Below, piece by piece: positions 23,753 to 38,733 of a stretch of 64,000 bases of DNA. Made by a program: the position numbers and the translations under genes. How positions within the stretch are numbered: position 1 is the stretch's first letter; each line of letters begins with the position of its first letter. The notes under the pieces were generated by a model. That model was given only the letters and a program-made list of their open reading frames with translations. It did not search any database and was not told the DNA's origin. This stretch comes from Candidatus Uhrbacteria bacterium (GTDB lineage: Bacteria > Patescibacteriota > Patescibacteriia > UBA9934 > GWF2-40-263), in assembly GCA_016188425.1 (NCBI GenBank), contig JACPHX010000006.1:28585-92584 (forward strand), written 5' to 3'.

Positions 23753-23755
23753 AGG

Positions 23756-24442: not shown

Positions 24443-24443
24443 A

Positions 24444-24601
24444 GGGGGAAGGGTGACCAAGGGTGAACAAGAGAGAACAAGGGTGAACAAGGGGGGGAAT
24501 TAGTAGGACGTTAACAATCAGAACAAATGAAACAAATCATTTTCATGTTTTTATAAAACTATTCGCTTCCTCCCCTCTTGTTCTATCTTGTTCACCCTCC
24601 T
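24444..24601. repeat. CAAGG-type short-tandem-repeat element, inverted pair (GGTGAACAAG units) flanking a 69-bp AT-rich spacer
   Basis: gggtgaccaagggtgaacaagagagaacaagggtgaacaagg ... cctcttgttctatcttgttcaccctcc. Confidence 0.6.
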
Positions 24602-24607
24602 ATTCTA

Positions 24608-25450
24608 TCACAACCTCCCCGGCCCGGCAGGGCTGTAGCCGCTGCGGACTTCGTCGGCATCTTGGTACCCGTCGCCGTCGGAGTCGACATTCGTGTCGCT
24701 GGAGCCGTATTTTGCTTCGGTATAGGCGTCCAGACCATCACCGTCGCGGTCGCCAGAGCCGACGATGTCCAGACAATCAATACGAATCAGCTCCAGGGCA
24801 ATCTCTTTGCAAAAGTCTGGATTGCGCGCCGCGATGGCCGCCTGTTTCTTGGACAAGCCATCACACACGTCTGCCGGACGGTTCATCTGGTTGCATTGAT
24901 CGATGGTAAGCCCCGTAAAGAAAAACGACTCGCAAGAGACACGACTCGCCTCATCTTTGATGTTCGCGCAGGCATCAATCTTCAACCCATTCGTCGCTTG
25001 GGCGCGATATTGCAGATCGGCACACGCATCTTTCGATTCCTGGGTCGAAAGCCCTTCGCAGGCCGACGCATCCATAGACGCATTCGCCGCTTGCCAAAGG
25101 CACGCATCCTTGAGGTCCGCCGCCAAGTCCTTGCAGGCCCCCACCTTCCCCTGCCCGCCCATGGCTTCCGCTTTCAAACGATCGAGGCAGGCCTGGCGGT
25201 CTATGGCAGCATCACATTCCTGTCCCGATACCTGAGACGCCGCTTGCTGTGCCGCTTCTTTCACGGAGCGCTGCGTGGCGCGCCGGGAGAAGAAGAAAAT
25301 CATCCCAACGACGAGAAGGGCAACAACAAACACCGCCACGCCTACAAGCACAAACGTGCGGCGTCGGGGACCCCCCCAGGCCCCCCCTTTAGGAAGGGGG
25401 GGACTAAGGGGGGGTTCCCAGGCATTGTCGTAGAGCGGTTGGTTGTCCAT
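24608..25450 (-). CDS. Single-pass membrane protein with Cys-rich ectodomain and C-terminal TSP3-like repeats (ends SGYSPAGPGRL)
   Basis: TM VLVGVAVFVVALLVVGMIFFF; many Cys; DRDGDGLDAYTE..DSDGDGYQDADE. Stop lies 3 nt downstream of the giant gene's stop, read in the direction of transcription. Confidence 0.5.
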   Translation of the reverse strand: MDNQPLYDNAWEPPLSPPLPKGGAWGGPRRRTFVLVGVAVFVVALLVVGMIFFFSRRATQRSVKEAAQQAASQVSGQECDAAIDRQACLDRLKAEAMGGQGKVGACKDLAADLKDACLWQAANASMDASACEGLSTQESKDACADLQYRAQATNGLKIDACANIKDEASRVSCESFFFTGLTIDQCNQMNRPADVCDGLSKKQAAIAARNPDFCKEIALELIRIDCLDIVGSGDRDGDGLDAYTEAKYGSSDTNVDSDGDGYQDADEVRSGYSPAGPGRL

Positions 25451-25453
25451 AGA

Positions 25454-28400
25454 TTAGCGGGCCGGGCATGCCGCGGCGCTGACGTTGGAGATGGTGCATC
25501 CGGTGGGACAATCGGCCCGGATATTTATAGGAATCGATGAAACGCCGTCACAGCCCAGAAGTCCCGCAGGAATCGGAATGATTTGTCCGACCCCTTGCGT
25601 CAGGATCCCAACCGATTGCACCGTGTTCCCATCCCTATCCTTCCCTGTCACCGTGACGCTAAACGGCGAGAAAGAGTCGACAATGAACCTGGCGGCGGAG
25701 ATGAATACGCTCTGCGTCCAGGCGGTGTAGGCGTATTCCACGCCGGTGTTTGGCCCGCAGACGCGCGGCGAAGAAAGATCTGTCGATGTGCGGTAGTGCT
25801 GCAGCTGGGTTTGGGTCGGAGTGGTAGGCGACGCGTTCCCCCAAGCGCACAGGTCATTGGTGACGGAAGCCATGACGCCCGCTCGCTCGACTCCCGCCGT
25901 ATCCACCAAAGGATCCATTGTATTCGTGATCGTGAGGGAATACACGCGACGGGCAGGGTTCTTGAGACTGCCGTCGGGATTCTTCACGATGTTCACCAGG
26001 TTCCAGGCAGGAGAGTCTACCGGATCTGAATCGGAGACGATAATCATGACCTGATCCGCCGAACCCGAGAACATGCCATTGGCCACACTCACCCCCGCGT
26101 TGACAAGCGCACTTCCCGCCGCATCTGCCCCGGTGAGGTTCACGACTTTGTTTCTTGCCAGATTGGTATCCGCATCGAGCGCCTGACCGACCGCGGCTCT
26201 GTCACCAAATACCGCCAACCCCACTCGCAAGATTTTCCCAGACCCCTGCCATCGATTCCGCATCAAGTCGATTTGCGCCGCCACCGCATCTCCCGCCTCC
26301 TGCAGACGGGTAGAGCCCCCGAACGCCCTGGACATGCTCGCGGTCTTATCCAGCACGAACACGACATCCGTGTCATGGGGCGCGGGGGCGCCCGGGATGC
26401 GAACGTCCATGGTGAGGGTACTCAACACGGAACACACGGGGAGAAACACTTTCGCATCGTTGGGGAATTGCCCCGAGGCCTGGCTGAAGAGCGTCACGGA
26501 ATCGACCAAGGTGGAGTTTACGATTTCTGGGAGCATCCGAGCTTTTTGGGAAGTGAACACGGGTGGGCAGGTAGACGCGCAATCACCGGCGCATTTGGCA
26601 ACGACGCAGACTCCTCCGCCTCCTACGCAACTCGGGTCCAGCAGGGCGTCGACGCTCGCATCGCGCACACAACGCATCCCCACATTCGTTCCTCCATCAC
26701 AATAGCCGATTTCTTTACAACTTGTGCCGACCGTCGAACATGCTCCGCCTGGGAACGTACAGGCCCCTCCCATCAAAACACCGGGGGACGGAAAAGTAAT
26801 GATCCCGGAACAAATCCCGGCGCTATTCGCCGCCATCAATCCGTCGCAAAGTTCGGTCCCTTCAATGACATTGTTTCCACAAAACGCCCCCGTCACCGTT
26901 TCAAAGCGGCAGTCTCGGGTACAGCCCGTACACACGCCGCCGTAGGGGGCGTTGCAGCCGTTCCCGTTTTGGCTGCCGTTGTCGCAGGATTCGACTCCTA
27001 AATTCACGACATTGTCGCCGCAGACGGCTGTTTTACAGCTATTAGTACATCCATCGTTGTCGTTTCGATTTCCGTCATCGCATTCTTCGGTGCCGGTCTT
27101 CCGCCCGTCGCCGCAATACTGACCGCCGCCGTTTGGTGAACCAACACGATCATATCCTTTGCAGGCATTCGCTCCAGAGGTCGAACAAGTCAATGAATAC
27201 TGGATTGGATACGTTTGAGCGGAACACGATCCTCTCACATAATCGGCATCTCCCGGAACACCCTTGTCGCAATTTTGCGGGATGGAACAGATCCCTCCTA
27301 TCTTCACTGGATCCCCCTGATCACAGACATTTGAAAGGACAGGAAACACGCAGGGTGTTGTGTCGACAGGACAATCGGCCACGCCATCACCTGTACAATA
27401 ATTCGTCGGATCCAGTTCACAATATCCCACCGGCTCTTTTGCATATCGTGTTGCCGGATCATTCGGATCGCAAATTTCATTGTTCGCCGTCTGCACCAGC
27501 CCGTCCCCGCACGACGGACCGACGCCGCGGCAGTCCGCGGCGCACGCAGAACCATACTCGCCGTTTCGCAATGTCCCGCAATGCGCCGCCGTTGCCCAGC
27601 CGCCCAGCGCGGTACTGAACAGGCCGCCGCAGTCACAACTCTCACCAGCGTCCAAAGTTCCATCTCCACAGATGTTCCGCTGTGTCCCCGTCGCGATCTG
27701 ACAATCGGAGGGGCAGTGGCCGTAGGTGCCGTTGAGGAAACCTTCGTCGCAATCCTCGTCTTCATCCGGCACGCCGTTGCCGCATTGGTAGGCGACACAG
27801 GTGGCGGAGGAACCGGTATCCGTTGTGAAGGCGCAGACATTCTGGGTCATGGGGGTACAGGCGGCGCCGGAGACGCCACAGGTGCCGCTTCCCAAACAAT
27901 TGGAGTCGGACACGCAATGCAACCCATCTCGAATTCCACCCGAACAAATCTTGCAATTGGCAGCGACAGCACACGCTCCAAAACTCGGATCTCCTCCACA
28001 GAACAATGTTGCACAATAGAGCGACGCGCTTTCGCAGTCAGCCGTTGTTGTACAGGAACGTTGGTAGGGTAATTGACCAGGAGCGAACGTGACGGCGCAC
28101 AATCCCGCCGTGGGTGCACACGGGACGAGTTTGTGTCCGTCCTTTTCGACCGACCGATCACAGGTAATGCTTGGACAATCGGTCGCCTGCGTCGCCACCG
28201 TACATGTCGTGTTCGCAGCAGCCGTCCCCCCGACGCATTTCAAGGTCGCCGGATCACAGCTTCCTCCAGGCGTCGTCGCGCAATCTGTTGCCTCGGAACA
28301 ATACGACCCGTCGCGCGTCCCTCCTTTGCAATACCCAAGCTTACAATCTACCGGTTTAATCTGCCCGACTTCACAAAACTCATTCGCCCCTTGGATGCCG

Positions 28401-31400
28401 TCGCCGCAGATCGCCGAGGCGCCAACCACCGTTCCTTGACAGAAGGAGTTGGGATAGAAACCGTCAGGGACAGAGGCGGGGGGATCATCTACACAGGCCG
28501 CATTGCCGCCCACCGTACAATCCTCCCCCCCTCGATTCCCTCCCACGCAGGTGGCTCCATTGCAATACCCATGCAGCACGTTGTATTCCGCGCGCAATGA
28601 AGAGTAATCGTTGGTATCCTGGTCGATATTTTCACTCCAAGGATAGTCCCCGTATTCCAGCATCCCTACGAGGTGATAGGCCGTGCTGCCGACGCCCTGG
28701 TACGCATAGATATGCGATCCTGGCGCGCACGCGAACTTCCCCGCCGTCGAATCGAAACAAGTCTCCGGGTCCGGATTGAACCCGCCCGAGCTGTCACAAG
28801 AGGAGAAACGGTTAATCGAATCGATAGGCAGCGTCCCTCCGACCAAGTTCCCGAGTTGCGCCTGCCAGCTGGGCCAGCGGCTGACGCTTTGCGCGCGGAT
28901 GAACGTCCCTTCGGAAAGCGCGGGGATGGAGGGGAGGCAGGCCTCGCCGATCGGACATTCGAAATCGAACCGGCAGGCGATGTCGGAACGAACCTCACAA
29001 TGGCCGTTACGCTGGGCCACGGTGCGTATGGCATCCTCCATCTTCAACAACTCTGTGAGGCGCACGGTATCGCGTCGTAATTTTGGCTTGTCCGCGCCGC
29101 AATACTGCCGGTCGCCGCAATCGCCGTCCCAGCTGCAACCAACCGGCTTGCCATCCGCATCCGTAGCGATCGCCGCCGTCCCCATGCCCACGCACACGTT
29201 AAACGATTCAACATTGGTGTTGAACTTCCAGTTCGCGATCGCTTGGTTGAAAATCTGCACTGCCACGTCGCCCGCATTTGGGTTGGTCGTCACCACGAAA
29301 ATGTTCGGATGCAGCTTGTTGTCGTCCCCCAACGTCGGCGCCGCGATATAAGCGGTATTTCCATCGCGCACCGCATCGTATCCGTCGATCTTGATGGGCT
29401 GCGGGCTCCCTTGGAAATTCTGGACGCGATACCAGTCCATGGCCGACAAATAGCCCGGGTTGCCGAGCACTTTCACGCCCAACGCATCCGTTTTAACGAC
29501 ATGGCTTACGTTCATCTCATCCACGAAAGTCTGGTTGGCAATGTACAAGCTTTCTTTGAACACTCCACGCGCCGTGACAGGCGTCGCGACATGCACGTAC
29601 TCCAAACGGGGCAAATCGTCCGCCGTGCTTGCCGGATCCCCCACATCCGCACAATAGAAGAACTGGTAATAGGTGGGGTCGCTCTCGCCAGGGTCGAACG
29701 TGGTGCCGTCATCGAGTGCGGAGTCGGTATCGCGGAAATAGTAGGGTTGCTCACACAGTGGAGCAAACAAATCCACGGATCCGTTCACGACCTTGGAGGG
29801 GGTCGTGTCGGTTCCCTCAAAGATGCTCGCACTGGCCATCGCCGTGCCCTCGCCCGTCTTTCCAAGGGCTGTATATCGCCGATACTGATCGTTGGTCGCA
29901 TAATCTGGATCCGCATCATTTCCAAAGACGGCTGATGAATCGGAAGGGAGGATAGTCCAGGCGTAGGTCCACGCGTACACGCCCGTGATGGATTGCAACG
30001 GCTGCGTTTGGTTCAACGTAAACGCCGTTGAGAGAAGCCGATGCTCCTCATTCGTTTTTCGGAAGACTTGCGAGTGGAGCGGGAGCCTTGGGTTCCCGGC
30101 GGCCGGAAGCGCGGCTCGATCCCCCAAATCTTGCACCACCACTTGCTCTACTTTGCAAAGTTCCGAAGTGGTCGTGAACGGAATCACATGCACCCCACCC
30201 GCCTCCTTTGGCAAACCAACGCCATGCTCGCTCAAAAGGCCGATCTTCGTGGCAGGATCGCCATCATCGGTATTGATGACGAGCTGGTAGGTTTGGCCTG
30301 CTGCGGTGGGCTCTAATGCTTGGGAAAGTTTTATGTGCATCTGCGCCTTTTCATAAATGGCATCCGGGTCGGGAAGCGTGTCCACCCAGTCCACCACCTC
30401 AAATGTGATGGGCAGGTAGCAGACTGAGCTCTGGGCGGAAACAGAATAGCCAAACAGCCACCGGAAACTAGAAACGATATGATGCCAGGCCTTGGCATAC
30501 CAGGTATTGGGAACGGCCTCCGCTGTGAGATAGCCGGCCGGACACGTCCCTCCAACCAGTTCCAAATGGACATTCTCATCCAACAAGTCTTCCGCCATCG
30601 GCTGATCGAAGTTCACGAAGATATCGGCATTGCGGCAAATCTGCGGAGTGCCAGATAAAGGCGGGAAGGAACTGACAATGGTCGGACGCGGGTAACAGCA
30701 TCCGGTCTCGGCACACGCGTACACCGGTGGAAGCGACGGATCCGGATCGATGCATTGGGTGTCATCCGTACACGTGCAGGAAACACTGTATTTTGCGGTT
30801 CCCTTCACGGTGTTTGCTTCTGCGGTAATCGTGGACGTGGCAATTTTTGTGAGCGGATCCAATTCCACTGCGGCATTCAGATCGATTTTGGCGAGCGTAA
30901 ACGCGGGTGTAAAGACAGCAGTGCCCGCGTACTCGCATTCCTCACCGATCCCCGTGGCCTTGTCGCCGCAGAACGAAGGGGTCGTGTACGTACTCGACGA
31001 CCCTTCTGCCAAGCAGTTCATGGAACAGCCGTCGCCGCTCGTATAGTTGCCATCATCGCAATCTTCTCCAGGATCCACCACCGCCACTCCCGCGCCAGGA
31101 GGATCGCCACAGCAATTCGTCAAATGCGTCGCGTCACAGATACGCAATCCCTCATTGAGACACAAGGAAGAACATCCATCGCCATCCACAGCATTGTTGT
31201 CATCGCAATCTTCTCCTGGTTCTTGCGTCCCATTCCCACAAATCCCGATCAAGGCCGCGGCCGACATGGCGATCGTGCCTTCATGAAGACAAATGGAGGA
31301 ACATCCATCGCCGTTGAACCGGTTCCCATCATCGCACTCTTCCCCGCCAACAGCCGCACTGTAAGCCACGTGGCCATCGCCGCAAGTCGTACGCGCGGCG

Positions 31401-34400
31401 GCCGATCCTTCATTGAGGCAGCGAGAAGAACATCCGTCGCCATTGATGACATTCCCATCATCGCACTCTTCCGGCGCATCTAAAGATCCGTTCCCGCAGG
31501 CGGCGTTTTCTATGCCTATATGGATACACGTAGGTCCGCAGCCAAACGGCAGCGGCCCGCCCGAAAAGGCCGCATCGCAATCTTCCCCCGCTTCAACCAC
31601 GCCGTTTCCGCAATGCGGATCGGTTATTTTAATAAGACTTCCTGTGTGTAAACAGCTTCCCGCACACCCGGCCGGGAGCGAAGCACCTATGGTCAATGTC
31701 GAATCGACCGTAGCAACATCCACGTTCGCATCTGCGGGCGGCACATCGACGTCCGCGCTGCTCCAAGGGGACCACGCCACGTTTGTTTGGAGATATTGCC
31801 CGGTAGGAGAACAGGCATCCGGTGCGCTCTTGGGGAGGCCGATGAATAGCTGCGTATCCCCTATCGATGTGGTTTGCGCCGCCTCCGGCCGCACTTCAAC
31901 GCTCGCCACGTCGCAGCGATCCCCTGTTCCGCTGGTCTTGAACACCCAGGAATAGTCATTGGTATAGCCGTGATTCTGATCGTCGTTGGATCCGTCAATG
32001 GATAAGGCAACGCCGCCGCTGGCATCCGTGATGTTGCCAGAGACGACCACGCGGTAGAACGTATCGGCAATCAGGGAACTGTTGAGGTTGATCCCCACTT
32101 CGCGGCAACCGCTCGCCGCCGGCGAGGTATCCAGACAGACGGGAGTCACGAGATACGCATTGCGATTAATGCGCGCCGCATCGCCATCGACGCACAATTC
32201 ATTCGGACATTGCCACAGGGAGTAATTCCCGGTGGTAAGGGCCTGGGTCGAGTTCATCTCCGTATTGAAACGGACGCCCGCGCTCGCATTGATGCAGGCC
32301 TCGCCGCAATCCGGCCACACATGCTCAACCTGCGGGTTGGGAAACTCCACCGTGATATCTGCCTGGCCGCCGACGGGGGTCGTGATCCCTGTGAGCAAGG
32401 CCACGATATGGGCAGGATCGGGATTGGTTTCCGCAAGAGCGGTGGCGGTGTTATCAAAATTGGTATCAGCCGTGACGACGGAAACGGATCCGGATTGGGT
32501 GCTGGACCAGGCAAATGAATAGGCCGCCGGATTCAGAACCAGACAGCGACCTGCCATGGGCAGTGCGTCATAATCCTGTGTCTTCGCTACAGAAGCAAGC
32601 GTTGTATCTGCGGGAGACACAAGTACGCCGCTGACGTCGCAATCTGTCCCGGCACGAACTTTGAAACGGAAAATGTAATCGCTTCCCAGTTTTTCCCCAA
32701 GCTGCGGGGGAACATCGATAGCCTTAAACAAGTTGCCTCTGAGAGTCACCCTGTAGGTGCTTCCAGCCGCAAACGGAGTCGCGGGCGTCCATAAAAAGAC
32801 TTTCGGTTTTGGATCAGAAGGAGGCGAGACAGCAAATGTCCCCGTCACGGGCGAAACCGTGTCACAGGGGTCATCCCCCGTATCCGTACACGTATCCACC
32901 GCGACGGCCGCGCCGTTAAAGGTGGTCAAATCCATCTTGGTTGTGAACTCCACCCGGATGATCGACGTGGTACAAGCATCCTCTCCCCACGCATCCCACG
33001 GGGAAGGCGATACAACCCGCTTGTCATCCGATGGATTGAGGGTACCGCGCGTGTCGATGGAACACTCTTCCAAGACGCGAGGAATGACAGGCAAGGGCCC
33101 CGTTGCAAACTGATACACAAAACTCGCGGCCACGGGTTGTTTGCACACATCCGCACAACTCCCGTCCGCACAGCACAAGTAGCCGATGCCAAACCCATGG
33201 CAATAATCCGCACTCTCTTCCCGGCAGTCGCTCACCGAAAACGGCAAAGGGTTGCTCGTATAACCGGCTCCCGCCGTTGTCGCCGTGACGGCACCCGTTG
33301 TCGCGCCGACCGGAACTTGCGCCCCGCTGATTTCATCGTTATCCCACGCCGCCACCACGGCAGGAACTCCATTGAAAAAATCCACCGTCCCCGTCGTCGT
33401 CCCAAGATTCTCGCCGTCCAGTTTAACAACGCTACGATTCGCCGCCGTCCATTCAGGCCCCGAAACGGGTGTCAATTTGCACAAAGCCGGCCCAGGTTGG
33501 TCATCGATGACCGTGAATGGCGCCGGGCCAGAACTCTGCGCGTCGGAAGATCGTTGCACGAAAATGTTATGGGTAAGGTATTCGATGGGATCCGGCGGAG
33601 CCACATACGTCGTCGGCACCTTCACAAGAATGGTGCTGTCGTTCCAAAGAGCCGCCCCGCACGCCGGTGGAAAATCTGTATCAGCCAAGGCGAAGACGCC
33701 CCCCCCTTTGTCAAAAGTAACCGTTCCTCCGAATCCGAAATGCGATCCAAGAATGGTGACATACTGCCCTGGTGGCCCCCAATCATTCACTTCCGCGCAA
33801 GAAATGGACGCCCCGCAATCCGCCACGGCATTGGCGACGGAGCAATGCGCTCCATCATTCGCTCCACCTGCACACGCATGCCAGCCAGAGACGACTTCAT
33901 TGATGACCGGCGGGTTGGCATCGGCATCCTGGGTAAAGACAAGTGGGTTGGATCCTTGTCGGAGCGGAAGGCAGACCCCGTCCGCAGGCGCGCACCGGTC
34001 GGTCGCCGAACAAAGTTCTGCCGTATTGATAGAACAGGCGTCCTCCCCAATAAACATCCTCACGTAATGCGATCCGGAACTCAAGAGCGGAGCCGTGGCG
34101 GTGGCGGACGTGCTGGACCATGTGGCTGTGTTGTAGGAAGTCGCTCTTGATGCATCGAAATAGACGGTCGAAGAAGCCGTATACGTCGAACCGAAATTCT
34201 TTCCAGAAAGCGTGACGCTGGACTGCCGCGGCCCGGTGGAAGGACTGATGGAACAAAGCCCGGGACGGACAATCGTGTTCACGTCAAAATCCGCAATGTG
34301 CGGGCCGTAGGTATCATCCGTCTGATCCGTTTTTGTCGGGTCGTCCCCCCGAAGGACTTCGATGGGGCCATCAACCGCTCCCACGGGAACCTCCACGACG

Positions 34401-35911
34401 ATCAACCGGTCCCCCCATTGCGGAGAGCCGCTGCAGACCGCGGCTGATACGGTCTTCTCGTCACCAGAAACAGGTGATCCTAAGAAAACCACTGTGCCCG
34501 CGCTCGCGGTTGGGCCGAAATTGCGGCCGATGATGCTGATGAGGTTTCCGACGGCTCCGTCTCCAGGCGTCACCTGGTCGATCCGCGGCCGCGTGTCTGC
34601 GGCACAGACGCCGGCGACGCACACTTCGTCCGTGCCGCAATCCGTATCGACGGAACAGGCGCCTCCTACGCATGCGCCGCAGTAATACTGGCTGGTCGTG
34701 CTTCCGCCGCAGTTCAGCTCGGTCTCGCCCAAATCCGTATCGATGGCGAGGTTGTTGCAATTGGCCGCGCGCAGGAACACCCTCGACGTCGTACTCGTCT
34801 CATTCGCCGCACAATCAAACCCCTTCATCCCGATCGTATACTGGCGGTTGGTCATGTACCCCGCCGCATCCCACTCCGATCCGTCATCGAAAAACAAACG
34901 CTCCGTGGTCGGGAACGGCTGCCCCGCAACGGGGAATGAATCGCTCGTCGAAAGGTCGGAGGAGGGGGTGAACAAGGTTCCATTGACGGAAAAATCGACG
35001 GCGTCTACCCCGACATCATCTTTGGTATAGGCCTGCAGGTCGATCGGGAACCCCCCCGCAAACACCACCGTGCCGTCCGCGGGCGCGTCGGCATGAACCG
35101 TGGATGGCGGAGCCGTGTCTATCGTTGCCAATGGGTCTATGGCAAACGAATACGTGCAGGGATGGGTCACGTCGCACACCAATGCCCAGCCGTTAGTTGA
35201 ACGGAGGATGGAAGGATCTGCCTTCACCGTATAACTCGTATCCGCCGGCAGACACGGAACCCCGGAACAGGTATTGGCGGGGGTAAACGTTACCCTCGAC
35301 CCAACGAGAGAAAACGTTCCTGGAACATCGTCCGACGTTGCGTCATCAATCACCCGCAACCCGCCGACAAGGGTGCTGTCTGGCAGCTGGATCCTGCTCA
35401 TCTCCGGGGGTCTCGTAAAAGAAAACTGGAGCAGCGTATTGGAAACGAATTCAAAACAATCTACGTTGAGCGGATTAAGCTGGAAGGAACGGCCCGGGGA
35501 CGGAGGGAATACCGGGTCTCTAGCCGGCTCCGATGAAGTCGTTCCCCCGCTGATCGCCGATGACAGGCGGCTGATGACAAAACTCGCAATCCCGTAGGCC
35601 CCCAAAATGAGAACGAGCCCGATCAGTCCGTTTCGAAGGATATCCCTCCCCTTCTTGACCCGCTTCTGATCACCGGCGGAGGTAAGGAACACCCATCCGC
35701 CCCACAGCACGATGAGCACTGCCAAAACTCCCAGGAAACCCAACAGGACGCTGATCAGTTTTGCGACGATCAATGGCACGCTGTCATTCACCCCCAGCCC
35801 CGCGATGTTCGCGAACGTGCCGGTAAGGCCGAAATTCGTTTGCGCCAACGCCACTTGCGGCATAAGCAGCAGAAGGAGTGGGAACAGACGAATGAGAAGG
35901 CGCTTGATCAC
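25454..35911 (-). CDS. Giant (3485 aa) surface protein: signal peptide plus TrbC/VirB2-like pilin membrane module, Ig/IPT-like regions, Myxococcus-type Cys-rich repeats (CGxGxxExGEECDDGN..GDGCS..C), C-terminal vWA domain with MIDAS
   Basis: N-terminus MIKRLLIRLFPLLLLLMPQVALA|QT...VLIVLWGGWVFLTSAGDQKRVKKGRDILRNGLIGLVLILGAYGIASFV. Cys repeats lie in roughly the second quarter of the protein plus a second cluster nearer the C-terminus. vWA DVVFVLDKTASMS...IIVSDSD at ~25860-26370. Confidence 0.7.
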   Translation of the reverse strand: MIKRLLIRLFPLLLLLMPQVALAQTNFGLTGTFANIAGLGVNDSVPLIVAKLISVLLGFLGVLAVLIVLWGGWVFLTSAGDQKRVKKGRDILRNGLIGLVLILGAYGIASFVISRLSSAISGGTTSSEPARDPVFPPSPGRSFQLNPLNVDCFEFVSNTLLQFSFTRPPEMSRIQLPDSTLVGGLRVIDDATSDDVPGTFSLVGSRVTFTPANTCSGVPCLPADTSYTVKADPSILRSTNGWALVCDVTHPCTYSFAIDPLATIDTAPPSTVHADAPADGTVVFAGGFPIDLQAYTKDDVGVDAVDFSVNGTLFTPSSDLSTSDSFPVAGQPFPTTERLFFDDGSEWDAAGYMTNRQYTIGMKGFDCAANETSTTSRVFLRAANCNNLAIDTDLGETELNCGGSTTSQYYCGACVGGACSVDTDCGTDEVCVAGVCAADTRPRIDQVTPGDGAVGNLISIIGRNFGPTASAGTVVFLGSPVSGDEKTVSAAVCSGSPQWGDRLIVVEVPVGAVDGPIEVLRGDDPTKTDQTDDTYGPHIADFDVNTIVRPGLCSISPSTGPRQSSVTLSGKNFGSTYTASSTVYFDASRATSYNTATWSSTSATATAPLLSSGSHYVRMFIGEDACSINTAELCSATDRCAPADGVCLPLRQGSNPLVFTQDADANPPVINEVVSGWHACAGGANDGAHCSVANAVADCGASISCAEVNDWGPPGQYVTILGSHFGFGGTVTFDKGGGVFALADTDFPPACGAALWNDSTILVKVPTTYVAPPDPIEYLTHNIFVQRSSDAQSSGPAPFTVIDDQPGPALCKLTPVSGPEWTAANRSVVKLDGENLGTTTGTVDFFNGVPAVVAAWDNDEISGAQVPVGATTGAVTATTAGAGYTSNPLPFSVSDCREESADYCHGFGIGYLCCADGSCADVCKQPVAASFVYQFATGPLPVIPRVLEECSIDTRGTLNPSDDKRVVSPSPWDAWGEDACTTSIIRVEFTTKMDLTTFNGAAVAVDTCTDTGDDPCDTVSPVTGTFAVSPPSDPKPKVFLWTPATPFAAGSTYRVTLRGNLFKAIDVPPQLGEKLGSDYIFRFKVRAGTDCDVSGVLVSPADTTLASVAKTQDYDALPMAGRCLVLNPAAYSFAWSSTQSGSVSVVTADTNFDNTATALAETNPDPAHIVALLTGITTPVGGQADITVEFPNPQVEHVWPDCGEACINASAGVRFNTEMNSTQALTTGNYSLWQCPNELCVDGDAARINRNAYLVTPVCLDTSPAASGCREVGINLNSSLIADTFYRVVVSGNITDASGGVALSIDGSNDDQNHGYTNDYSWVFKTSGTGDRCDVASVEVRPEAAQTTSIGDTQLFIGLPKSAPDACSPTGQYLQTNVAWSPWSSADVDVPPADANVDVATVDSTLTIGASLPAGCAGSCLHTGSLIKITDPHCGNGVVEAGEDCDAAFSGGPLPFGCGPTCIHIGIENAACGNGSLDAPEECDDGNVINGDGCSSRCLNEGSAAARTTCGDGHVAYSAAVGGEECDDGNRFNGDGCSSICLHEGTIAMSAAALIGICGNGTQEPGEDCDDNNAVDGDGCSSLCLNEGLRICDATHLTNCCGDPPGAGVAVVDPGEDCDDGNYTSGDGCSMNCLAEGSSSTYTTPSFCGDKATGIGEECEYAGTAVFTPAFTLAKIDLNAAVELDPLTKIATSTITAEANTVKGTAKYSVSCTCTDDTQCIDPDPSLPPVYACAETGCCYPRPTIVSSFPPLSGTPQICRNADIFVNFDQPMAEDLLDENVHLELVGGTCPAGYLTAEAVPNTWYAKAWHHIVSSFRWLFGYSVSAQSSVCYLPITFEVVDWVDTLPDPDAIYEKAQMHIKLSQALEPTAAGQTYQLVINTDDGDPATKIGLLSEHGVGLPKEAGGVHVIPFTTTSELCKVEQVVVQDLGDRAALPAAGNPRLPLHSQVFRKTNEEHRLLSTAFTLNQTQPLQSITGVYAWTYAWTILPSDSSAVFGNDADPDYATNDQYRRYTALGKTGEGTAMASASIFEGTDTTPSKVVNGSVDLFAPLCEQPYYFRDTDSALDDGTTFDPGESDPTYYQFFYCADVGDPASTADDLPRLEYVHVATPVTARGVFKESLYIANQTFVDEMNVSHVVKTDALGVKVLGNPGYLSAMDWYRVQNFQGSPQPIKIDGYDAVRDGNTAYIAAPTLGDDNKLHPNIFVVTTNPNAGDVAVQIFNQAIANWKFNTNVESFNVCVGMGTAAIATDADGKPVGCSWDGDCGDRQYCGADKPKLRRDTVRLTELLKMEDAIRTVAQRNGHCEVRSDIACRFDFECPIGEACLPSIPALSEGTFIRAQSVSRWPSWQAQLGNLVGGTLPIDSINRFSSCDSSGGFNPDPETCFDSTAGKFACAPGSHIYAYQGVGSTAYHLVGMLEYGDYPWSENIDQDTNDYSSLRAEYNVLHGYCNGATCVGGNRGGEDCTVGGNAACVDDPPASVPDGFYPNSFCQGTVVGASAICGDGIQGANEFCEVGQIKPVDCKLGYCKGGTRDGSYCSEATDCATTPGGSCDPATLKCVGGTAAANTTCTVATQATDCPSITCDRSVEKDGHKLVPCAPTAGLCAVTFAPGQLPYQRSCTTTADCESASLYCATLFCGGDPSFGACAVAANCKICSGGIRDGLHCVSDSNCLGSGTCGVSGAACTPMTQNVCAFTTDTGSSATCVAYQCGNGVPDEDEDCDEGFLNGTYGHCPSDCQIATGTQRNICGDGTLDAGESCDCGGLFSTALGGWATAAHCGTLRNGEYGSACAADCRGVGPSCGDGLVQTANNEICDPNDPATRYAKEPVGYCELDPTNYCTGDGVADCPVDTTPCVFPVLSNVCDQGDPVKIGGICSIPQNCDKGVPGDADYVRGSCSAQTYPIQYSLTCSTSGANACKGYDRVGSPNGGGQYCGDGRKTGTEECDDGNRNDNDGCTNSCKTAVCGDNVVNLGVESCDNGSQNGNGCNAPYGGVCTGCTRDCRFETVTGAFCGNNVIEGTELCDGLMAANSAGICSGIITFPSPGVLMGGACTFPGGACSTVGTSCKEIGYCDGGTNVGMRCVRDASVDALLDPSCVGGGGVCVVAKCAGDCASTCPPVFTSQKARMLPEIVNSTLVDSVTLFSQASGQFPNDAKVFLPVCSVLSTLTMDVRIPGAPAPHDTDVVFVLDKTASMSRAFGGSTRLQEAGDAVAAQIDLMRNRWQGSGKILRVGLAVFGDRAAVGQALDADTNLARNKVVNLTGADAAGSALVNAGVSVANGMFSGSADQVMIIVSDSDPVDSPAWNLVNIVKNPDGSLKNPARRVYSLTITNTMDPLVDTAGVERAGVMASVTNDLCAWGNASPTTPTQTQLQHYRTSTDLSSPRVCGPNTGVEYAYTAWTQSVFISAARFIVDSFSPFSVTVTGKDRDGNTVQSVGILTQGVGQIIPIPAGLLGCDGVSSIPINIRADCPTGCTISNVSAAACPAR

Positions 35912-35923
35912 AAACGATGAAGG

Positions 35924-37726
35924 TTAGTAAGGCAGTCCGCCACCCAAAGGAGCCGCCGCATTGCAGGCACCGGAACGAGCCGTCAAAAGAGGTGACGGCT
36001 CGGTTCCCTCGCTGCAACAGTTCGGGTTGGTCGAATCGCTGGCGCACACAGGAAGCGTTCCTCCGCTCAAAGCCGGATACATACAAAACTGATTGGATCC
36101 TTTCAATCCATGGGTGATTTCCTGGAAATACGCCAATCCTCCATCCATATCTGAAATAAGGGGAGGATGTTCAATGAGAGCAATGTTGGGAGTGATGCCA
36201 AGCGCTCCGGTAAACCAGACCGAGTAATCTGGAAGAGAGGTGGAGGGATGGAAAATCAGGTTTGAATTACTTACGGTGGAAGGTTGCAGATTTCGATTAA
36301 ACGTAATCGTGATGGGATCATTCAGACTGGCAAATGACTTGTTGATGGCCGGGCTCAATCCGACCACCGCTGGCGTGGCTGTATCGATGAAGTTTGTTGT
36401 TGTAAATGACCAAGGAAAATCGTCACCAGCAGTTCCATCCCCTCCAATGACACCGCCATCAAGCGAGTTTCCTGCCGCATCCACGACCCCGTCATAGGGG
36501 ACGACGGACTGAACGGTATTGGTGGGATCAATCGACGTATCGATGGTCGCCGCGGTCGCGAGACCCGAGATGGTTGCCGCCCCTGGAAGGCAATAGACCG
36601 TGTTCCCGCACGGATCCGTCGCACATCCCTGGGCAGGGATAAACTCGACCGTGCGATACCCGTTGCTGATTTGCCAAACCCCCACCACGGGCGTGCCTCC
36701 GTTGTCTAACACAAGGTTTGTAAACGGAAGCGTGTGTCCTGTCGTTGCCACCGGATTCATGGCCTCGTTGAACGTGATCGACGCAATGGTATTTTTATCG
36801 ACCGCAGGCGACGACGGCGCCGGGACCCGCGACACCACATACGGAGGAGTCAGGTCGACCGTGGTTCCAACCTCGAAGGTCCAAGAGTAGCCAGCTGGGT
36901 ACCCAGCAAACGCATCCGCCGTATCGTCTTTTTTGATATCCGAAGTTAGATGCACGGTATAGTTGGTGTCCTGCACACCATCACCCAGCCAATTCACCGG
37001 ATCAAACGTATACACTTTGTGATCCTTCGTGACGAACACCTTGACGTCCGCGGGAAGAAACTTAGAAGTGATGTCGGCTGATTTGAAAAACTCCACCGAA
37101 GTATCGGCTATTTGGCCGGATCCGGATCCGTCCCCGTTATCGACGAACCCAACCATAACCGTGTTGGGGTCGACGGCCTCTTTGAAGGTGAGGAAAACGT
37201 TTGTATTCCTCGCCACATCAAGCGCGCCCCGGGGCGGATAGTGATCCTGCACGATCCCCAGCCCAAGCGGGCCGGAGAGCGGATCCGTATACCGGCCAGC
37301 CAGATCCGTCCGTGTGCCCACACCCGTCAGGACATTTACGCCCAGCAGGCGGAAGATGAATACGACGATGGCCCAGGATGCCAAAATGATGATAAGGCCG
37401 ATGACCGCATTTTTGAGCACGTTGCGGCCCTGCTCTACCCGACGTGCGTCCCCCGCCGACGTCATGATGACGTACCCGGCATACAAGATCATGACAACGG
37501 CGATGATGCCGATAATGCTCAAGAAGGCGAGAATCAACAGTTCGATGATTTCAATAAGCGGCCGCTGCCCCAAGAGCGTCGCCTGCGTGCCAACCTGTTC
37601 GAGCGCAGACGATTGGGCCAGGGCCGGAGACGCAGAAAAAAAGAAGCCAAAGATACCAAAAGCAACCGAACCAAAAAGGGAACGAAGCGTCCGTGTCCGT
37701 AAATGAAGAAAAGAAAAAACGCGCAT
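35924..37726 (-). CDS. 600-aa surface protein: signal peptide plus the same TrbC/VirB2-like pilin module, followed by bacterial Ig-like (Big_5-type) domains
   Basis: SASPALA|QSS...ILYAGYVIMTSAGDARRVEQGRNVLKNAVIGLIIILASWAIVVFIF; 12-nt gap to the giant gene. Confidence 0.65.
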   Translation of the reverse strand: MRVFSFLHLRTRTLRSLFGSVAFGIFGFFFSASPALAQSSALEQVGTQATLLGQRPLIEIIELLILAFLSIIGIIAVVMILYAGYVIMTSAGDARRVEQGRNVLKNAVIGLIIILASWAIVVFIFRLLGVNVLTGVGTRTDLAGRYTDPLSGPLGLGIVQDHYPPRGALDVARNTNVFLTFKEAVDPNTVMVGFVDNGDGSGSGQIADTSVEFFKSADITSKFLPADVKVFVTKDHKVYTFDPVNWLGDGVQDTNYTVHLTSDIKKDDTADAFAGYPAGYSWTFEVGTTVDLTPPYVVSRVPAPSSPAVDKNTIASITFNEAMNPVATTGHTLPFTNLVLDNGGTPVVGVWQISNGYRTVEFIPAQGCATDPCGNTVYCLPGAATISGLATAATIDTSIDPTNTVQSVVPYDGVVDAAGNSLDGGVIGGDGTAGDDFPWSFTTTNFIDTATPAVVGLSPAINKSFASLNDPITITFNRNLQPSTVSNSNLIFHPSTSLPDYSVWFTGALGITPNIALIEHPPLISDMDGGLAYFQEITHGLKGSNQFCMYPALSGGTLPVCASDSTNPNCCSEGTEPSPLLTARSGACNAAAPLGGGLPY

Positions 37727-37803
37727 GGGATATCTTCATTTTACAACATCTCGGCGCGCAGGGCGAGGAGAGACCCCATGTGGACAAGATTGTTACGACC
37801 CCC

Positions 37804-38547: not shown

Positions 38548-38608
38548 AAAAGAAAAAGATTCATCTACAGGATAGGACAACTGGGCAAGGAAGACAACGG
38601 ACAAACGT

Positions 38609-38709: not shown

Positions 38710-38733
38710 TATTTCTCAGCGATGTCTTCCCTT

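What the first reader, a model, noticed from the sequence alone, without database searches (positions are those of the whole stretch)
25454..35911. 3485-aa giant protein combining a pilin-like anchor, Myxococcus-type Cys-rich repeats and a C-terminal vWA/MIDAS domain
Domain order read from the translation: signal peptide and pilin-like module (aa 1-125), then long beta-rich Ig/IPT-like stretches (e.g. PRIDQVTPGDGAVGNLISIIGRNFG). There are at least 8 tandem CGxGxxExGEECDDGNxxxGDGCSxxC repeats of the kind known from myxobacterial secreted proteins; most sit in roughly the second quarter of the protein, with a second cluster nearer the C-terminus. A vWA domain with a DxTxS MIDAS (DKTASMS...SDSD) lies ~300 aa from the C-terminus. 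The same Cys-repeat flavour occurs in the unrelated lipoprotein at 1-932, so this repeat class is part of the organism's secretome. The combination suggests a Ca/Mg-dependent adhesin.
Basis: partly seen in the sequence, partly recalled or inferred. Interest (0 to 1): 0.6.

Follow-up and report, generated by a model that had tools for sequence, protein, structure and literature searches.

The report
Giant pilin-anchored surface fibre, Uhrbacteria
This is a real 3485-residue cell-surface protein of an ultra-small Candidatus Uhrbacteria (Patescibacteria) bacterium, rooted in the membrane by a conjugative-pilus-type (VirB2-like) pilin module; it belongs to a large, undescribed family encoded in a conserved gene cluster next to the cell-division genes, and is most likely a fibre for contacting other cells.

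Summary
The ORF is real: 25454-35911 on the minus strand, 3485 aa.
- a Sec signal peptide followed by a VirB2/TrbC-type T4SS pilin module (not a type IV pilin);
- Big_7, TIG and Big_5 Ig-like domains;
- 13 DUF4215/TIGR02232 Cys-rich acidic repeats, 6 tandem and 7 dispersed;
- a C-terminal vWA domain.

Three corrections. The MIDAS is degenerate here (DKTAS is kept, the Thr is replaced by Val). The protein at 1-933 carries MopE-type motifs, not this repeat. About half of the repeats, not most, lie in the first cluster.

Assembly collapse is excluded. No repeat copy exceeds 79% DNA identity to its reference, the same protein appears in an independent assembly, and orthologues are collinear in at least 25 genomes.

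New context: the protein (NCBI MBI2551005.1, "DUF4215 domain-containing protein") belongs to a family of over 1,200 representative clusters, mostly 3,000-3,600 aa. The gene order HisRS, YqeY, small pilin, pilin-Big_5, giant, three TSP3 membrane proteins, YbeY, DAGK, FtsA, FtsZ is conserved. In other lineages the gene is split into adjacent genes, each downstream part with its own signal peptide. A conserved 290-aa central module has no known fold match.

Best reading: a pilin-anchored, multi-part host- or surface-contact fibre. I rate it a new variant of a known kind, of moderate interest.

The parts
25454..35911 (-). Whole gene: 3485-aa giant surface protein (NCBI MBI2551005.1, Candidatus Uhrbacteria bacterium)
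   Evidence: ORF list and translation. Exact protein found on an independent Logan contig. NCBI name.
35843..35911 (-). Sec signal peptide, aa 1-23 (MIKRLLIRLFPLLLLLMPQVALA/Q)
   Evidence: Read from the sequence. Hydrophobic segment at aa 4-24. The same SP...ALAQ pattern opens most of the family members listed.
35537..35842 (-). VirB2/TrbC-like T4SS pilin module, aa 24-125: two hydrophobic helices (aa 41-81 and 94-117) joined by a basic loop TSAGDQKRVKKGRD
   Evidence: PF18895 scores 25.2 bits in the whole protein and 28.1 bits as a segment. All 14 aligned family members match it. A profile of the three local modules retrieves 78 free-standing PF18895 pilins of 98-230 aa, with E-values down to 5e-24. 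Mean pairwise identity is 0.41, among the best-conserved regions.
33227..35461 (-). Membrane-proximal stalk, aa 151-895: an Ig-like domain, Big_7, a Cys-knot linker and about four TIG/IPT domains
   Evidence: Pfam Big_7 at aa 271-320; TIG at 554-627, 711-800 and a further stretch. Invariant Cys and Gly columns across the family. Domain boundaries are approximate.
31622..33106 (-). Big_5 / Ig-like domains, aa 936-1430
   Evidence: Pfam Big_5 at aa 1193-1326 (47 bits) and a weak match at 978-1060. Big_5 matches in 14 of 14 family members.
30917..31621 (-). Cys-rich acidic repeat cluster I, aa 1431-1665: six tandem DUF4215/TIGR02232 units
   Evidence: TIGR02232 130.5 bits and DUF4215 80.7 bits. 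Regex cores at aa 1434, 1472, 1510, 1558, 1600 and 1648. DNA copies of the repeat unit are only 61-75% identical to their reference copy.
29762..30691 (-). Two further Ig-like domains, aa 1741-2050 (Big_5-like with an inserted Trp-rich segment, then an Ig-like domain)
   Evidence: Weak Big_5 match at aa 1743-1784 and the family alignment. The domain assignment is an inference.
28637..29761 (-). Family-defining central module, aa 2051-2425 (CENPWP... / DAIGVRV..DGYxAVRDG..NWxFNxN / KLRRD..SxWPSW..LPxDPxN..YxY..LEY); fold unknown
   Evidence: phmmer of aa 1690-2440 gives 1258 representative clusters at E<=1e-3. The AlphaFold model of aa 2136-2425 has pLDDT 86.5 and pTM 0.79. There is no Foldseek match at E<=1e-3 in PDB or BFVD, no Pfam hit and no PDB sequence-profile hit. 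The module also occurs in separate secreted proteins such as P0001.
26582..28636 (-). Cys-rich region II, aa 2426-3110, with seven dispersed, degenerate DUF4215-type units
   Evidence: Regex cores at aa 2502, 2710, 2748, 2801, 2933, 2964 and 3011. DUF4215 best stretch at 2932-2960. Invariant Cys columns across the family.
25727..26581 (-). Pre-vWA beta strands and the vWA domain, aa 3111-3395, with a degenerate MIDAS (D3188-K-T-A-S; Thr replaced by Val; SDSD)
   Evidence: VWA_2 28.5 and 32.8 bits. Family alignment. AlphaFold model with pLDDT 64.8. Foldseek top hit is SpaC at 7.6e-8, followed by integrin, LapA vWFA, BatB, Mfa5 and PilB.
25457..25726 (-). C-terminal beta domain, aa 3396-3485, ending ...CPAR; no LPXTG motif and no transmembrane segment
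   Evidence: The model shows beta strands with pLDDT of about 80. The family consensus ends ...TYCPxx. No sorting motif and no hydrophobic tail.
35924..37726 (-). Upstream partner: 600-aa protein with a signal peptide, a VirB2-like pilin module and three Big_5 domains. Its stop codon lies 13 nt before the giant's start codon.
   Evidence: PF18895 38.7 bits and Big_5 70 bits. Its pilin module is 34% identical to the giant's. A homologue was found in 40 of 78 loci held, directly upstream of the giant gene wherever the full cluster is present.
37804..38109 (-). Small VirB2-like pilin module (about 100 aa), here in frame with the C-terminus of the YqeY ORF (37804-38604)
   Evidence: PF18895 22.7 bits at aa 205-259 of the ORF. 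It is a separate 116-137-aa gene in L010, L012 and L013, with a matching unannotated reading frame in L009.
24608..25450 (-). Downstream partner 1: 280-aa single-pass membrane protein with a Cys-containing ectodomain and a C-terminal TSP3-like motif. It starts 4 nt after the giant's stop codon.
   Evidence: Translation. TSP3_bac weak match at 17.3 bits. Conserved directly downstream of the giant gene.
23756..24490 (-). Downstream partner 2: 244-aa single-pass membrane protein with Pro-rich linkers and three TSP3 Ca-binding repeats
   Evidence: TSP3_bac 76 bits. Syntenic; a homologue was found in 52 loci.
22763..23752 (-). Downstream partner 3: 329-aa single-pass membrane protein with a TSP3 motif and a C-terminal globular domain
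   Evidence: TSP3_bac weak match. Syntenic; a homologue was found in 47 loci.

Best explanation
The gene encodes the main component of a long, disulfide-stabilised cell-surface fibre of a Candidatus Uhrbacteria (Patescibacteria) cell.

**Proposed mechanism**
1. The protein is exported by the Sec pathway.
2. After signal-peptide cleavage it stays rooted in the cytoplasmic membrane by an N-terminal VirB2/TrbC-type pilin hairpin: helix, basic cytoplasmic loop, helix, with the C-terminus outside.
3. About 3,360 extracellular residues follow. First comes a stalk of roughly ten Ig-like domains (Big_7, TIG, Big_5) and six tandem Cys-rich acidic repeats.
4. Next come a conserved module of unknown fold and a second Cys-rich region.
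5. At the free distal end sits a fast-evolving vWA domain on a beta-sandwich.
6. It most likely works as a contact or adhesion fibre towards a host cell or a surface. It would act together with the co-transcribed small pilin, the 600-aa pilin-Ig protein and the three membrane-anchored Ca-binding TSP3 proteins.

**Shown**
- The domain content, the topology signals and the homology of the anchor to free-standing pilins.
- The size of the family, the conserved synteny, and the gene fission and fusion.
- The gradient of conservation, with the base conserved and the tip variable.

**Inferred**
- Surface exposure, a fibre shape of the order of 100 nm, an adhesive function, and cooperation with the neighbouring proteins.
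- Whether the pilin module is only a membrane anchor or is built into a VirB2-type pilus remains open.
For: **Architecture**
- Signal peptide, PF18895, Big_7, TIG, Big_5, TIGR02232/DUF4215 and VWA_2 are all detected.
- The only hydrophobic segments are the signal peptide and the two pilin helices, and there is no C-terminal anchor.

**The anchor is a real pilin homologue**
- A profile of the three local modules finds 78 stand-alone PF18895 pilins, with E-values down to 5e-24. One is named VirB2 pilin by JGI.
- The gene is the third member of a tandem array: small pilin, pilin-Big_5, giant.

**The gene is real and conserved**
- The identical protein is found in an independent assembly.
- 1258 representative clusters match at E<=1e-3 and 338 at <=1e-30. 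Most are 3,000-3,600 aa with the match at the same position.
- 14 members are collinear at 30-37% identity, and all carry T4SS_pilin, TIG and Big_5.

**Organism**
- NCBI names it Candidatus Uhrbacteria.
- Relatives are in Uhrbacteria, Falkowbacteria and Parcubacteria/Patescibacteria MAGs.

**Synteny and fission**
- The order HisRS, YqeY, (small pilin), pilin-Big_5, giant, three TSP3 proteins, YbeY, DAGK, FtsA, FtsZ is kept in at least 25 loci.
- In L059, L062 and L070 the stalk and the module part are adjacent genes. In L003 and L007 the vWA part is a separate gene. In each case the downstream gene has its own signal peptide.

**Surface-protein-like evolution**
- Against the nearest genome (L002), FtsZ is 72%, FtsA 71% and HisRS 70% identical, while the giant is 36% identical over its full length.
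- The pilin module has a mean pairwise identity of 0.41, against 0.24 for the vWA domain and 0.25 for the C-terminal domain.

**Adhesin-like tip**
- The vWA model's best PDB matches include SpaC, the LapA vWFA domain, Mfa5 and PilB.

**Literature context**
- Arrays of VirB2-like pilins are common in Patescibacteria (PMC12102498).
- A pilin array, the T4SS and several adhesins are essential for epibiotic growth in a cultivated relative (PMC10633639).
Against: - There is no experimental or expression evidence.
- The MIDAS of this particular vWA domain has lost its Thr ligand, so its binding mode is uncertain. Some family members replace the vWA domain with a CarboxypepD_reg-type domain.
- No T4SS machinery gene (VirB4, VirB6, VirD4) was found in the 64-kb window.
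- The strict conservation, the apparent single copy per genome and the position next to ftsA/ftsZ are unusual for an adhesin. They would also fit a structural envelope role.
- The central conserved module has no known fold or function.
- No host or ligand is known for Uhrbacteria.
Confidence: 0.6

Rival explanations
1. The protein is a modular minor pilin of a VirB2-type pilus. The small pilin encoded two genes upstream would polymerise into a T4SS-dependent filament. The 600-aa and 3485-aa proteins would be incorporated through their pilin modules, sparsely or at one end. The filament would then display the Ig stalk and the vWA tip, much as modular type IV pilins display grafted modules.
For: - Three consecutive genes carry homologous VirB2-like modules, in a conserved order from small to giant.
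- The pilin module, including its basic inter-helix loop, is among the best-conserved parts of the protein (0.41 mean pairwise identity). That is more than a plain anchor would seem to need.
- Its relatives are bona fide small pilins.
- VirB2-like pilin arrays, and a T4SS able to build pili, are reported as typical of Patescibacteria and essential in one cultivated species (PMC12102498, PMC10633639, PMC12857230).
- The vWA model matches PilB, a modular pilin.
Against: - No T4SS gene lies in the 64-kb window.
- A 3,360-residue C-terminal extension cannot be packed in a homopolymeric shaft, so incorporation would have to be rare or terminal. That has no precedent for VirB2-type pili that I know of (my own knowledge).
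- A basic loop between two transmembrane helices is also what the positive-inside rule predicts for a simple anchor.
Confidence: 0.25
2. The protein is a core structural envelope component rather than a host adhesin. It could be a cell-surface scaffold, part of an S-layer-like coat, or a division-associated surface structure.
For: - The architecture is collinear over more than 3,000 residues, and each genome appears once in the locus list with a full-length form.
- The chromosomal position is fixed, in a block of housekeeping genes directly upstream of ybeY, dagK, ftsA and ftsZ.
- The three co-conserved membrane proteins with Ca-binding TSP3 repeats could cross-link a surface layer.
Against: - The sequence diverges about twice as fast as the neighbouring housekeeping proteins.
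- The distal vWA and C-terminal domains are the most variable parts and are even replaced in some members. This is the pattern expected of a ligand-facing tip.
- The vWA domain's nearest structural relatives are adhesins.
- Gene order in the small Patescibacteria genomes is generally conserved, so the neighbourhood of ftsAZ need not be functional (inference).
Confidence: 0.12
3. The ORF is an assembly artefact: a chimera or a collapse of repeated segments in a metagenome assembly.
For: The gene is 10.5 kb long, comes from a metagenome-assembled genome and encodes 13 copies of one repeat type.
Against: - Tandem Repeats Finder finds nothing, and no direct-repeat copy exceeds 79% identity to its reference copy, over at most 76 nt.
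- The identical 3485-aa protein occurs on an independently assembled Logan contig seen in two samples.
- Dozens of orthologues of the same length and domain order exist, including on a 1.0-Mb chromosome-level record.
Confidence: 0.02

Closest known systems
VirB2/TrbC-type T4SS pilins and the VirB2-like pilin arrays of Patescibacteria (Pfam PF18895; PMC12102498, PMC10633639)
   Same: The N-terminal 125 residues have a signal peptide and two hydrophobic helices joined by a basic loop. They match PF18895, and a profile of them retrieves stand-alone pilins. The gene sits in a tandem array of three pilin-module genes.
   Different: Known members are about 100-230 aa, whereas this one carries a 3,360-residue C-terminal ectodomain. 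The array is not next to T4SS genes in this window. It lies in a housekeeping block beside ftsA/ftsZ. The papers read here describe small pilins only and mention no such fusions.
Modular type IV pilins, for example PilB of Streptococcus sanguinis (pilin module plus vWA; PMC8179133; PDB 7ba2)
   Same: The design principle is shared: a pilin module carries a grafted functional module that includes a vWA domain. PilB is among the structural matches of the vWA model.
   Different: The pilin class is different (type IV pilin with a prepilin-peptidase motif, against VirB2-like with a Sec signal peptide). No G-FTLIE motif occurs here. The module is attached at the C-terminus of a two-helix hairpin, and the protein is about eight times larger.
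Pilus-tip adhesins with vWA domains: SpaC/RrgA (Gram-positive sortase pili) and Mfa5 (type V pili)
   Same: The vWA domain is distal and flanked by beta-sandwich strands. SpaC is the best structural match (E 7.6e-8) and Mfa5 is also listed.
   Different: There is no LPXTG sorting signal or C-terminal membrane anchor. Anchoring is N-terminal. The MIDAS is incomplete.
Giant repeat adhesins of Gram-negative bacteria (LapA, SiiE, MpIBP; type I secretion)
   Same: These are also multi-thousand-residue surface proteins made of Ig-like repeats with ligand-binding modules, including vWA, near the distal end. The LapA vWFA domain is among the structural matches.
   Different: The signal is Sec rather than a C-terminal RTX/T1SS signal, and there are no RTX nonapeptides. 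The host is monoderm. The domains are diverse and diverged rather than near-identical tandem copies.
Myxobacterial Cys-rich acidic repeat proteins (TIGR02232 / DUF4215)
   Same: The repeat family is the same and scores far above threshold.
   Different: The organism is a Patescibacterium, not a myxobacterium. The repeats are one element of a conserved giant architecture.

Membership tests
VirB2/TrbC-like T4SS pilin (PF18895 T4SS_pilin) | Profile HMM match at or above the curated threshold | tested here: inconclusive
   The whole protein scores 25.2 bits against a cut-off of 26.6. The N-terminal 400-aa segment scores 28.1 bits. NF045849 scores 29.6 bits against a cut-off of 40. All 14 aligned family members match at E<=1e-3, the best at 3.1e-10.
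VirB2/TrbC-like T4SS pilin (PF18895 T4SS_pilin) | Signal peptide followed by two hydrophobic helices separated by a short basic loop | tested here: met
   Signal peptide at aa 4-24, helices at aa 41-81 and 94-117, loop TSAGDQKRVKKGRD.
VirB2/TrbC-like T4SS pilin (PF18895 T4SS_pilin) | Homology to free-standing pilins | tested here: met
   A profile of the three local modules finds 78 proteins of 98-230 aa. All carry PF18895 and some also carry PF04956 TrbC/VirB2. E-values reach 5e-24.
VirB2/TrbC-like T4SS pilin (PF18895 T4SS_pilin) | Small protein (about 100-150 aa mature) encoded with T4SS machinery (VirB4, VirB6 and others) | tested here: not met
   The protein is 3485 aa. No VirB4, VirB6 or VirD4 family was found among the window ORFs scanned. 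The rest of the genome could not be searched.
VirB2/TrbC-like T4SS pilin (PF18895 T4SS_pilin) | Polymerises into an extracellular pilus | not testable with these tools
   This needs imaging or biochemistry.
TIGR02232 / DUF4215 cysteine-rich acidic repeat | Repeat HMM above threshold, in multiple copies | tested here: met
   TIGR02232 scores 130.5 bits (cut-off 20.8) and DUF4215 scores 80.7 bits (cut-off 27). There are 13 CG[DN]G..E.C[DE] cores.
von Willebrand factor A domain with MIDAS | vWA profile match and Rossmann-like vWA fold | tested here: met
   VWA_2 scores 28.5 bits in the whole protein and 32.8 bits as a segment, against a cut-off of 27. The model (pLDDT 64.8) gives 251 PDB matches at E<=1e-3, and the top-listed ones are vWA-domain structures.
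von Willebrand factor A domain with MIDAS | Complete MIDAS: D-x-S-x-S, a Thr, and an Asp | tested here: not met
   The first motif is D3188-K-T-A-S (Ser to Thr). At the position of the family's GG-TPT motif this protein has AG-VSV, so the Thr ligand is replaced by Val. The Asp is kept (SDSD). Most other family members have the full D.SGSM / GG.TPT / SDG.P set.
Sortase-anchored Gram-positive pilins (SpaC/RrgA type) | C-terminal LPXTG sorting motif followed by a hydrophobic segment and a basic tail | tested here: not met
   There is no LPXTG-type motif near the C-terminus and no C-terminal hydrophobic segment.
RTX / type I secreted giant adhesins (LapA, SiiE type) | C-terminal RTX nonapeptide repeats and a T1SS signal, with no Sec signal peptide | tested here: not met
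   No GGxGxDxUx motifs and no HemolysinCabind hit in Pfam. A Sec signal peptide is present.
Type IV pilins / pseudopilins (for the anchor and for the central module) | Prepilin-peptidase motif G/FTLxE plus a hydrophobic alpha1 helix; pilin alpha-beta head fold | tested here: not met
   The motif occurs nowhere in the window. For the central module: the model has no pilin match in PDB, T2SSG matches 1 of 15 members at E=0.14, and hhalign against four locus pilins gives probability 0.1.

The most novel reading that the evidence does not exclude
The conserved cluster (small VirB2-like pilin, pilin-Ig protein, giant pilin fusion, three Ca-binding TSP3 membrane proteins) may encode a previously unrecognised surface organelle of Uhrbacteria and related Patescibacteria.

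In this reading, a conjugative-pilin fold has been recruited as the base, or the polymerising unit, of a multi-subunit contact fibre about 100 nm long. Its distal modules, the unknown-fold module and the vWA tip, would recognise the host. It could correspond to pilus-like appendages on ultra-small bacteria, and it could be as essential for their symbiotic life as the pilin array of cultivated Saccharibacteria.
Probability: 0.25. Interest if true: 0.8.

Novelty: new variant of a known kind. Interest (0 to 1): 0.5.

Why it matters
Patescibacteria make up a large share of bacterial diversity. They are thought to live attached to other cells, yet outside the cultivated Saccharibacteria almost nothing is known about how they make contact.

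This gene takes up 10.5 kb in a lineage where a chromosome-level relative is only about 1 Mb. It is kept collinear across many species and sits in a fixed operon with two other pilin-module proteins and three Ca-binding membrane proteins. That makes the cluster a concrete, testable candidate for the contact apparatus of this lineage.

The work also yields three reusable results:
- A VirB2-type pilin fold can carry a very large ectodomain.
- A conserved 290-residue module has no fold match in the solved-structure or viral-model libraries searched.
- Gene fission and fusion show which parts work together.

If the protein is merely a membrane-anchored adhesin, the result is an ordinary but well-documented annotation upgrade from "DUF4215 domain-containing protein".

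Tried and rejected
1. A whole-protein search with the search for homologous proteins timed out. Word-index searches with the central region found only 1 hit, and a search with its 4-sequence profile found only 6. The full HMMER scan was what revealed the family.
2. I thought the second half of the central module (KLRRD..L....G.YP...SxWPSW...LPxDPxN...YxY...LEY) might be a type IV pilin or GspG-like head domain. This was not supported:
   - the confident model has no pilin hit in PDB;
   - a PDB sequence-profile search found nothing;
   - Pfam T2SSG matched 1 of 15 members at E=0.14;
   - hhalign against the four prepilin-like ORFs found in related loci gave probability 0.1.
3. The BFVD viral structure search of the module found nothing significant.
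It worked with 4 sequences.
6. The promoter and terminator scan of 22000-39200 gave counts no higher than in shuffled sequence, so it does not define the operon boundaries.
7. Assembly collapse, sortase anchoring, RTX/T1SS secretion and type IV pilin identity were each considered and rejected.

Full report

The window has one uninterrupted ORF at 25454..35911 on the minus strand. It is 3485 codons long and starts with GTG, 13 nt after the stop codon of the upstream gene.

Pfam and NCBIfam scans of the whole protein, and of ten overlapping 400-aa segments, give the following map:

| Residues | Feature | Evidence |
|---|---|---|
| 1-23 | Signal peptide | sequence |
| 47-112 | PF18895 T4SS_pilin | 25.2 bits whole, 28.1 bits as a segment, cut-off 26.6; NF045849 29.6 bits, below its cut-off of 40 |
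| 271-320 | Big_7 | Pfam |
| about 441-530, 554-627, 711-800 | TIG | Pfam; a fourth TIG-like domain follows |
| 978-1060 (weak), 1193-1326 | Big_5 | Pfam; a weak Big_5 start at 1743 |
| 1434-1660, 2502-3023 | DUF4215 / TIGR02232 repeats | 80.7 and 130.5 bits, far above cut-off |
| 1750-2450 | No Pfam or NCBIfam hit | - |
| 3183-3295 | VWA_2 | 28.5 bits whole, 32.8 bits as a segment, cut-off 27 |

A regex counts 13 CG[DN]G...E.C[DE] repeat cores: six in tandem at aa 1434-1660 and seven dispersed at aa 2502-3023. The only hydrophobic segments are the signal peptide and the two helices of the pilin module. There is no LPXTG motif, no C-terminal anchor and no RTX motif.

Four corrections apply:
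- About half of the repeats, not most, are in the first cluster.
- The pilin-like module is of the VirB2/TrbC (type IV secretion) class, not a type IV pilin. No prepilin motif occurs in the window.
- The MIDAS is incomplete (see section 4).
- The truncated protein at 1-933 (minus strand) carries three PF11617 MopE-type motifs and does not match TIGR02232. Its neighbour at 1228-2520 has teneurin-type EGF repeats. The "same repeat flavour" argument therefore fails.

**2. Is it an assembly artefact?**

No.
- Tandem Repeats Finder reports nothing in the gene. No direct-repeat copy exceeds 79% identity to its reference copy, over at most 76 nt, and the repeat-unit families D1-D3 are 61-75% identical. 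That is too diverged to collapse.
- The identical 3485-aa protein is encoded on an independently assembled 17-kb Logan contig (SRR12113421, seen in two samples) with the same neighbours.
- Full-length collinear orthologues exist in many genomes (section 3).

**3. What is it? Organism and family**

An exact look-up identifies the protein as NCBI MBI2551005.1, [quoted passage not shown], on a 112-kb contig.

The rest of the window is a typical small-genome housekeeping set: FtsA, FtsZ, HisRS, signal peptidase, TopA, RelA/SpoT, DprA, EngA, ParAB, ScpAB, two class II aminoacyl-tRNA synthetases, RecO, IF3, pyruvate kinase, HtrA, an LCP protein, tmRNA and five tRNAs.

A full HMMER scan with the unannotated central region (aa 1690-2440) against 1.84 billion representatives found 1258 clusters at E<=1e-3 and 338 at <=1e-30. 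Most of the top hits are 3,000-3,600 aa long, with the match at the same relative position. Their N-termini show the same signal peptide and pilin pattern.

Fourteen full-length members align collinearly at 30-37% identity, with many invariant Cys, Gly and Trp columns. All 14 contain T4SS_pilin, TIG and Big_5. Eight score for DUF4215. Four match VWA and three match VWA_2. Two have a CarboxypepD_reg-type domain, and in the alignment three members (P0105, P0124, P0127) carry a different C-terminal region in place of the vWA domain.

Sources name members only "hypothetical", "IPT/TIG domain-containing" or "VWFA domain-containing". I found no description of the family in the searchable literature.

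A scan of one genome per species found 156 relatives of the central module. They lie in Candidatus Uhrbacteria (best 44% identity), Falkowbacteria, Parcubacteria and "Patescibacteria group" MAGs. Some records are titled "uncultured Gammaproteobacteria" but carry the same Patescibacteria-type gene cluster, one of them a 1.0-Mb chromosome, so these titles look like mislabels. The window's own species is not among those representatives.

**4. Anatomy in more detail**

*N-terminal anchor.* The three consecutive genes 37804-38604, 35924-37726 and the giant all carry homologous VirB2-like modules. A profile of the three retrieves 78 proteins. All are small (98-230 aa) stand-alone PF18895 pilins from Patescibacteria, with E-values down to 5e-24, and some also match PF04956 TrbC/VirB2. 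The anchor is therefore a genuine pilin homologue, and what is unusual is the 3,360-residue C-terminal extension. With the known VirB2 topology (both ends outside, loop inside; established knowledge of the family), the extension is extracellular.

*Central module.* An AlphaFold model of aa 2136-2425, built from a 15-sequence alignment, is confident (pLDDT 86.5, pTM 0.79). It has no Foldseek match at E<=1e-3 in PDB or in BFVD, no PDB sequence-profile match and no Pfam match. I suspected a type IV pilin or GspG-like head from sequence motifs, but none of the tests supported this. The module also occurs in separate secreted proteins of 800-1300 aa, together with the Cys-rich repeats and TSP3 repeats.

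*C-terminus.* The family consensus has a canonical MIDAS (D.SGSM ... GG-TPT ... SDG.P). The window protein has DKTASM ... AG-VSV ... SDSD, so the Thr ligand is lost, and it lacks an insertion present in the others. A model of aa 3150-3485 is of moderate quality (pLDDT 64.8). It shows a vWA alpha/beta core flanked by beta strands before and after. Foldseek returns 251 PDB matches at E<=1e-3. The top-listed ones are vWA domains, led by the pilus-tip adhesin SpaC (7.6e-8) and including the LapA vWFA domain, BatB, Mfa5, PilB and integrin I-domains.

**5. Genomic context**

In at least 25 related loci the order is HisRS, YqeY, (small VirB2-like pilin), pilin-Big_5 of about 600-650 aa, the giant, three single-pass membrane proteins with TSP3 Ca-binding repeats, YbeY, DAGK, FtsA, FtsZ.

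The giant is tightly spaced with its neighbours, 13 nt upstream and 4 nt downstream, which suggests co-transcription. The consensus promoter and terminator scan is uninformative.

The small pilin is a separate 116-137-aa gene in L010, L012 and L013. A matching reading frame, not picked up in the map, is also visible in L009. In the window and its closest relatives it is in frame with YqeY.

No T4SS machinery gene was found in the window.

**6. Fission and fusion**

In L059, L062 and L070 (and, by ORF layout, about seven more loci) the gene is two adjacent genes. The first is a 1,940-2,190-aa protein made of signal peptide, pilin module and Ig stalk. The second is a 1,000-1,060-aa protein with its own signal peptide that begins with the central module.

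In L003 and L007 the split falls after the module: 2,380 aa, followed by 1,500-1,750 aa with its own signal peptide and ending in the vWA and ...YCP tail.

The window protein is thus a fusion of parts that elsewhere are separately secreted, adjacent subunits. This argues that they act together in one extracellular assembly.

**7. Evolutionary pattern**

Against the nearest genome (L002), FtsZ is 72%, FtsA 71% and HisRS 70% identical, but the giant is only 36% identical over its full length and the pilin-Big_5 protein 39%.

Within the family, the pilin module (mean pairwise identity 0.41), the first repeat cluster (0.47) and the module core (0.40) are the best conserved. The vWA domain (0.24) and the C-terminal domain (0.25) are the least conserved. 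The base is conserved and the tip is variable.

**8. Mechanism**

The best-supported reading is a Sec-exported fibre that is anchored at its N-terminus by the pilin hairpin and stabilised by disulfides (178 Cys, 5.1%). It would reach well beyond the wall, of the order of 100 nm if extended, which is an inference from the domain count. It presents the unknown module and a fast-evolving vWA tip for contact with a host cell or a surface. It would work together with the small pilin, the pilin-Ig protein and the three Ca-binding TSP3 proteins. Confidence is about 0.6.

A specific sub-hypothesis is that the pilin modules co-assemble into a VirB2-type filament that displays these extensions, about 0.25. 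It is suggested by three things:
- the tandem array of pilin-module genes;
- the conservation of the module;
- published evidence that VirB2-like pilin arrays are widespread in Patescibacteria (PMC12102498) and essential in a cultivated species (PMC10633639).

It lacks any local T4SS genes and any precedent for so large an extension.

A purely structural envelope role, about 0.12, is suggested by the strict synteny beside ftsAZ, but it fits the variable tip less well. An assembly artefact is excluded.

**9. Comparison with the known, and novelty**

The protein works like a giant modular adhesin or a pilus-tip adhesin. It is not a member of the sortase-pilin, RTX-adhesin or type IV pilin families, because defining features were tested and not met.

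Its anchor is homologous to VirB2-like pilins, but the protein fails the size and context criteria of that family. Its repeats are bona fide TIGR02232/DUF4215. Its vWA domain is real but has a degenerate MIDAS.

The protein itself is already deposited and trivially named. What is not described in the papers I could read is the family as such, its pilin-fusion design, its conserved operon, the fission and fusion, and the central module with no fold match. I rate it a new variant of a known kind, with interest of about 0.5.

Noticed in passing
window 37804-38604 (-): The YqeY ORF (266 aa) continues in frame into a VirB2-like pilin module (aa 205-259, PF18895 22.7 bits). The pilin's signal-peptide-like segment follows the cytoplasmic YqeY domain directly. 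In L010, L012 and L013 the pilin is a separate gene right after YqeY, with a matching reading frame in L009. In L002, L005 and other close relatives the ORF is fused as here. It could be a real fusion or an internal translation start.
   Followed up: partly
window 1-933 (-), 1228-2520 (-), 2610-3722 (-): The left end of the window holds three secreted or lipoprotein-like proteins of a different flavour. The first is truncated and has three MopE-type metal-binding motifs (PF11617). The second is a 430-aa protein with teneurin-type EGF repeats plus one MopE motif. The third is a 370-aa protein with a signal peptide and no family hit. GC here is 59%.
   Followed up: partly
window 22763-25450 (-): Three consecutive single-pass membrane proteins carry thrombospondin type 3 Ca-binding repeats (weak similarity to Myxococcus CglD and MtsD repeat regions) and Pro-rich linkers. 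They are conserved directly downstream of the giant gene in dozens of genomes.
   Followed up: partly
L059, L062, L070 (split before the module); L003, L007 (split after the module): The orthologous giant gene is split into two adjacent genes at two different positions in different lineages. In each case the downstream gene has acquired its own signal peptide.
   Followed up: partly
L004, L005, L008, L014 and many other loci: Many MAG records titled "uncultured Gammaproteobacteria bacterium" carry this Patescibacteria-type cluster with the same synteny. One of them, OZ246408.1, is a 1.0-Mb chromosome. The titles look like taxonomic mislabels.
   Followed up: no
window 13130-15316 (+): A 728-aa protein whose only hits are weak coiled-coil matches (SMC/Rad50-like, DUF4763). 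The adjacent 443-aa ORF at 11647-12978 has no family hit.
   Followed up: no
window 9074-9478 (-); 55926-56338: A tmRNA gene (115.6 bits), and a small tRNA cluster (Met, Leu, Met) that lies between parA and a D-Ala-D-Ala carboxypeptidase gene.
   Followed up: no
window 48398-49252 (-): A Fic/DOC family protein (81 bits) sits next to an ABC exporter (46593-48365).
   Followed up: no
giant protein aa 1790-1825 (window about 30437-30544, -): A Trp-rich amphipathic insertion (NTWYAKAWHHIVSSFRWLFGYSVSA) lies inside a Big_5-like domain. It is conserved in character (W..W....LFG) across the family, and its role is unknown.
   Followed up: no
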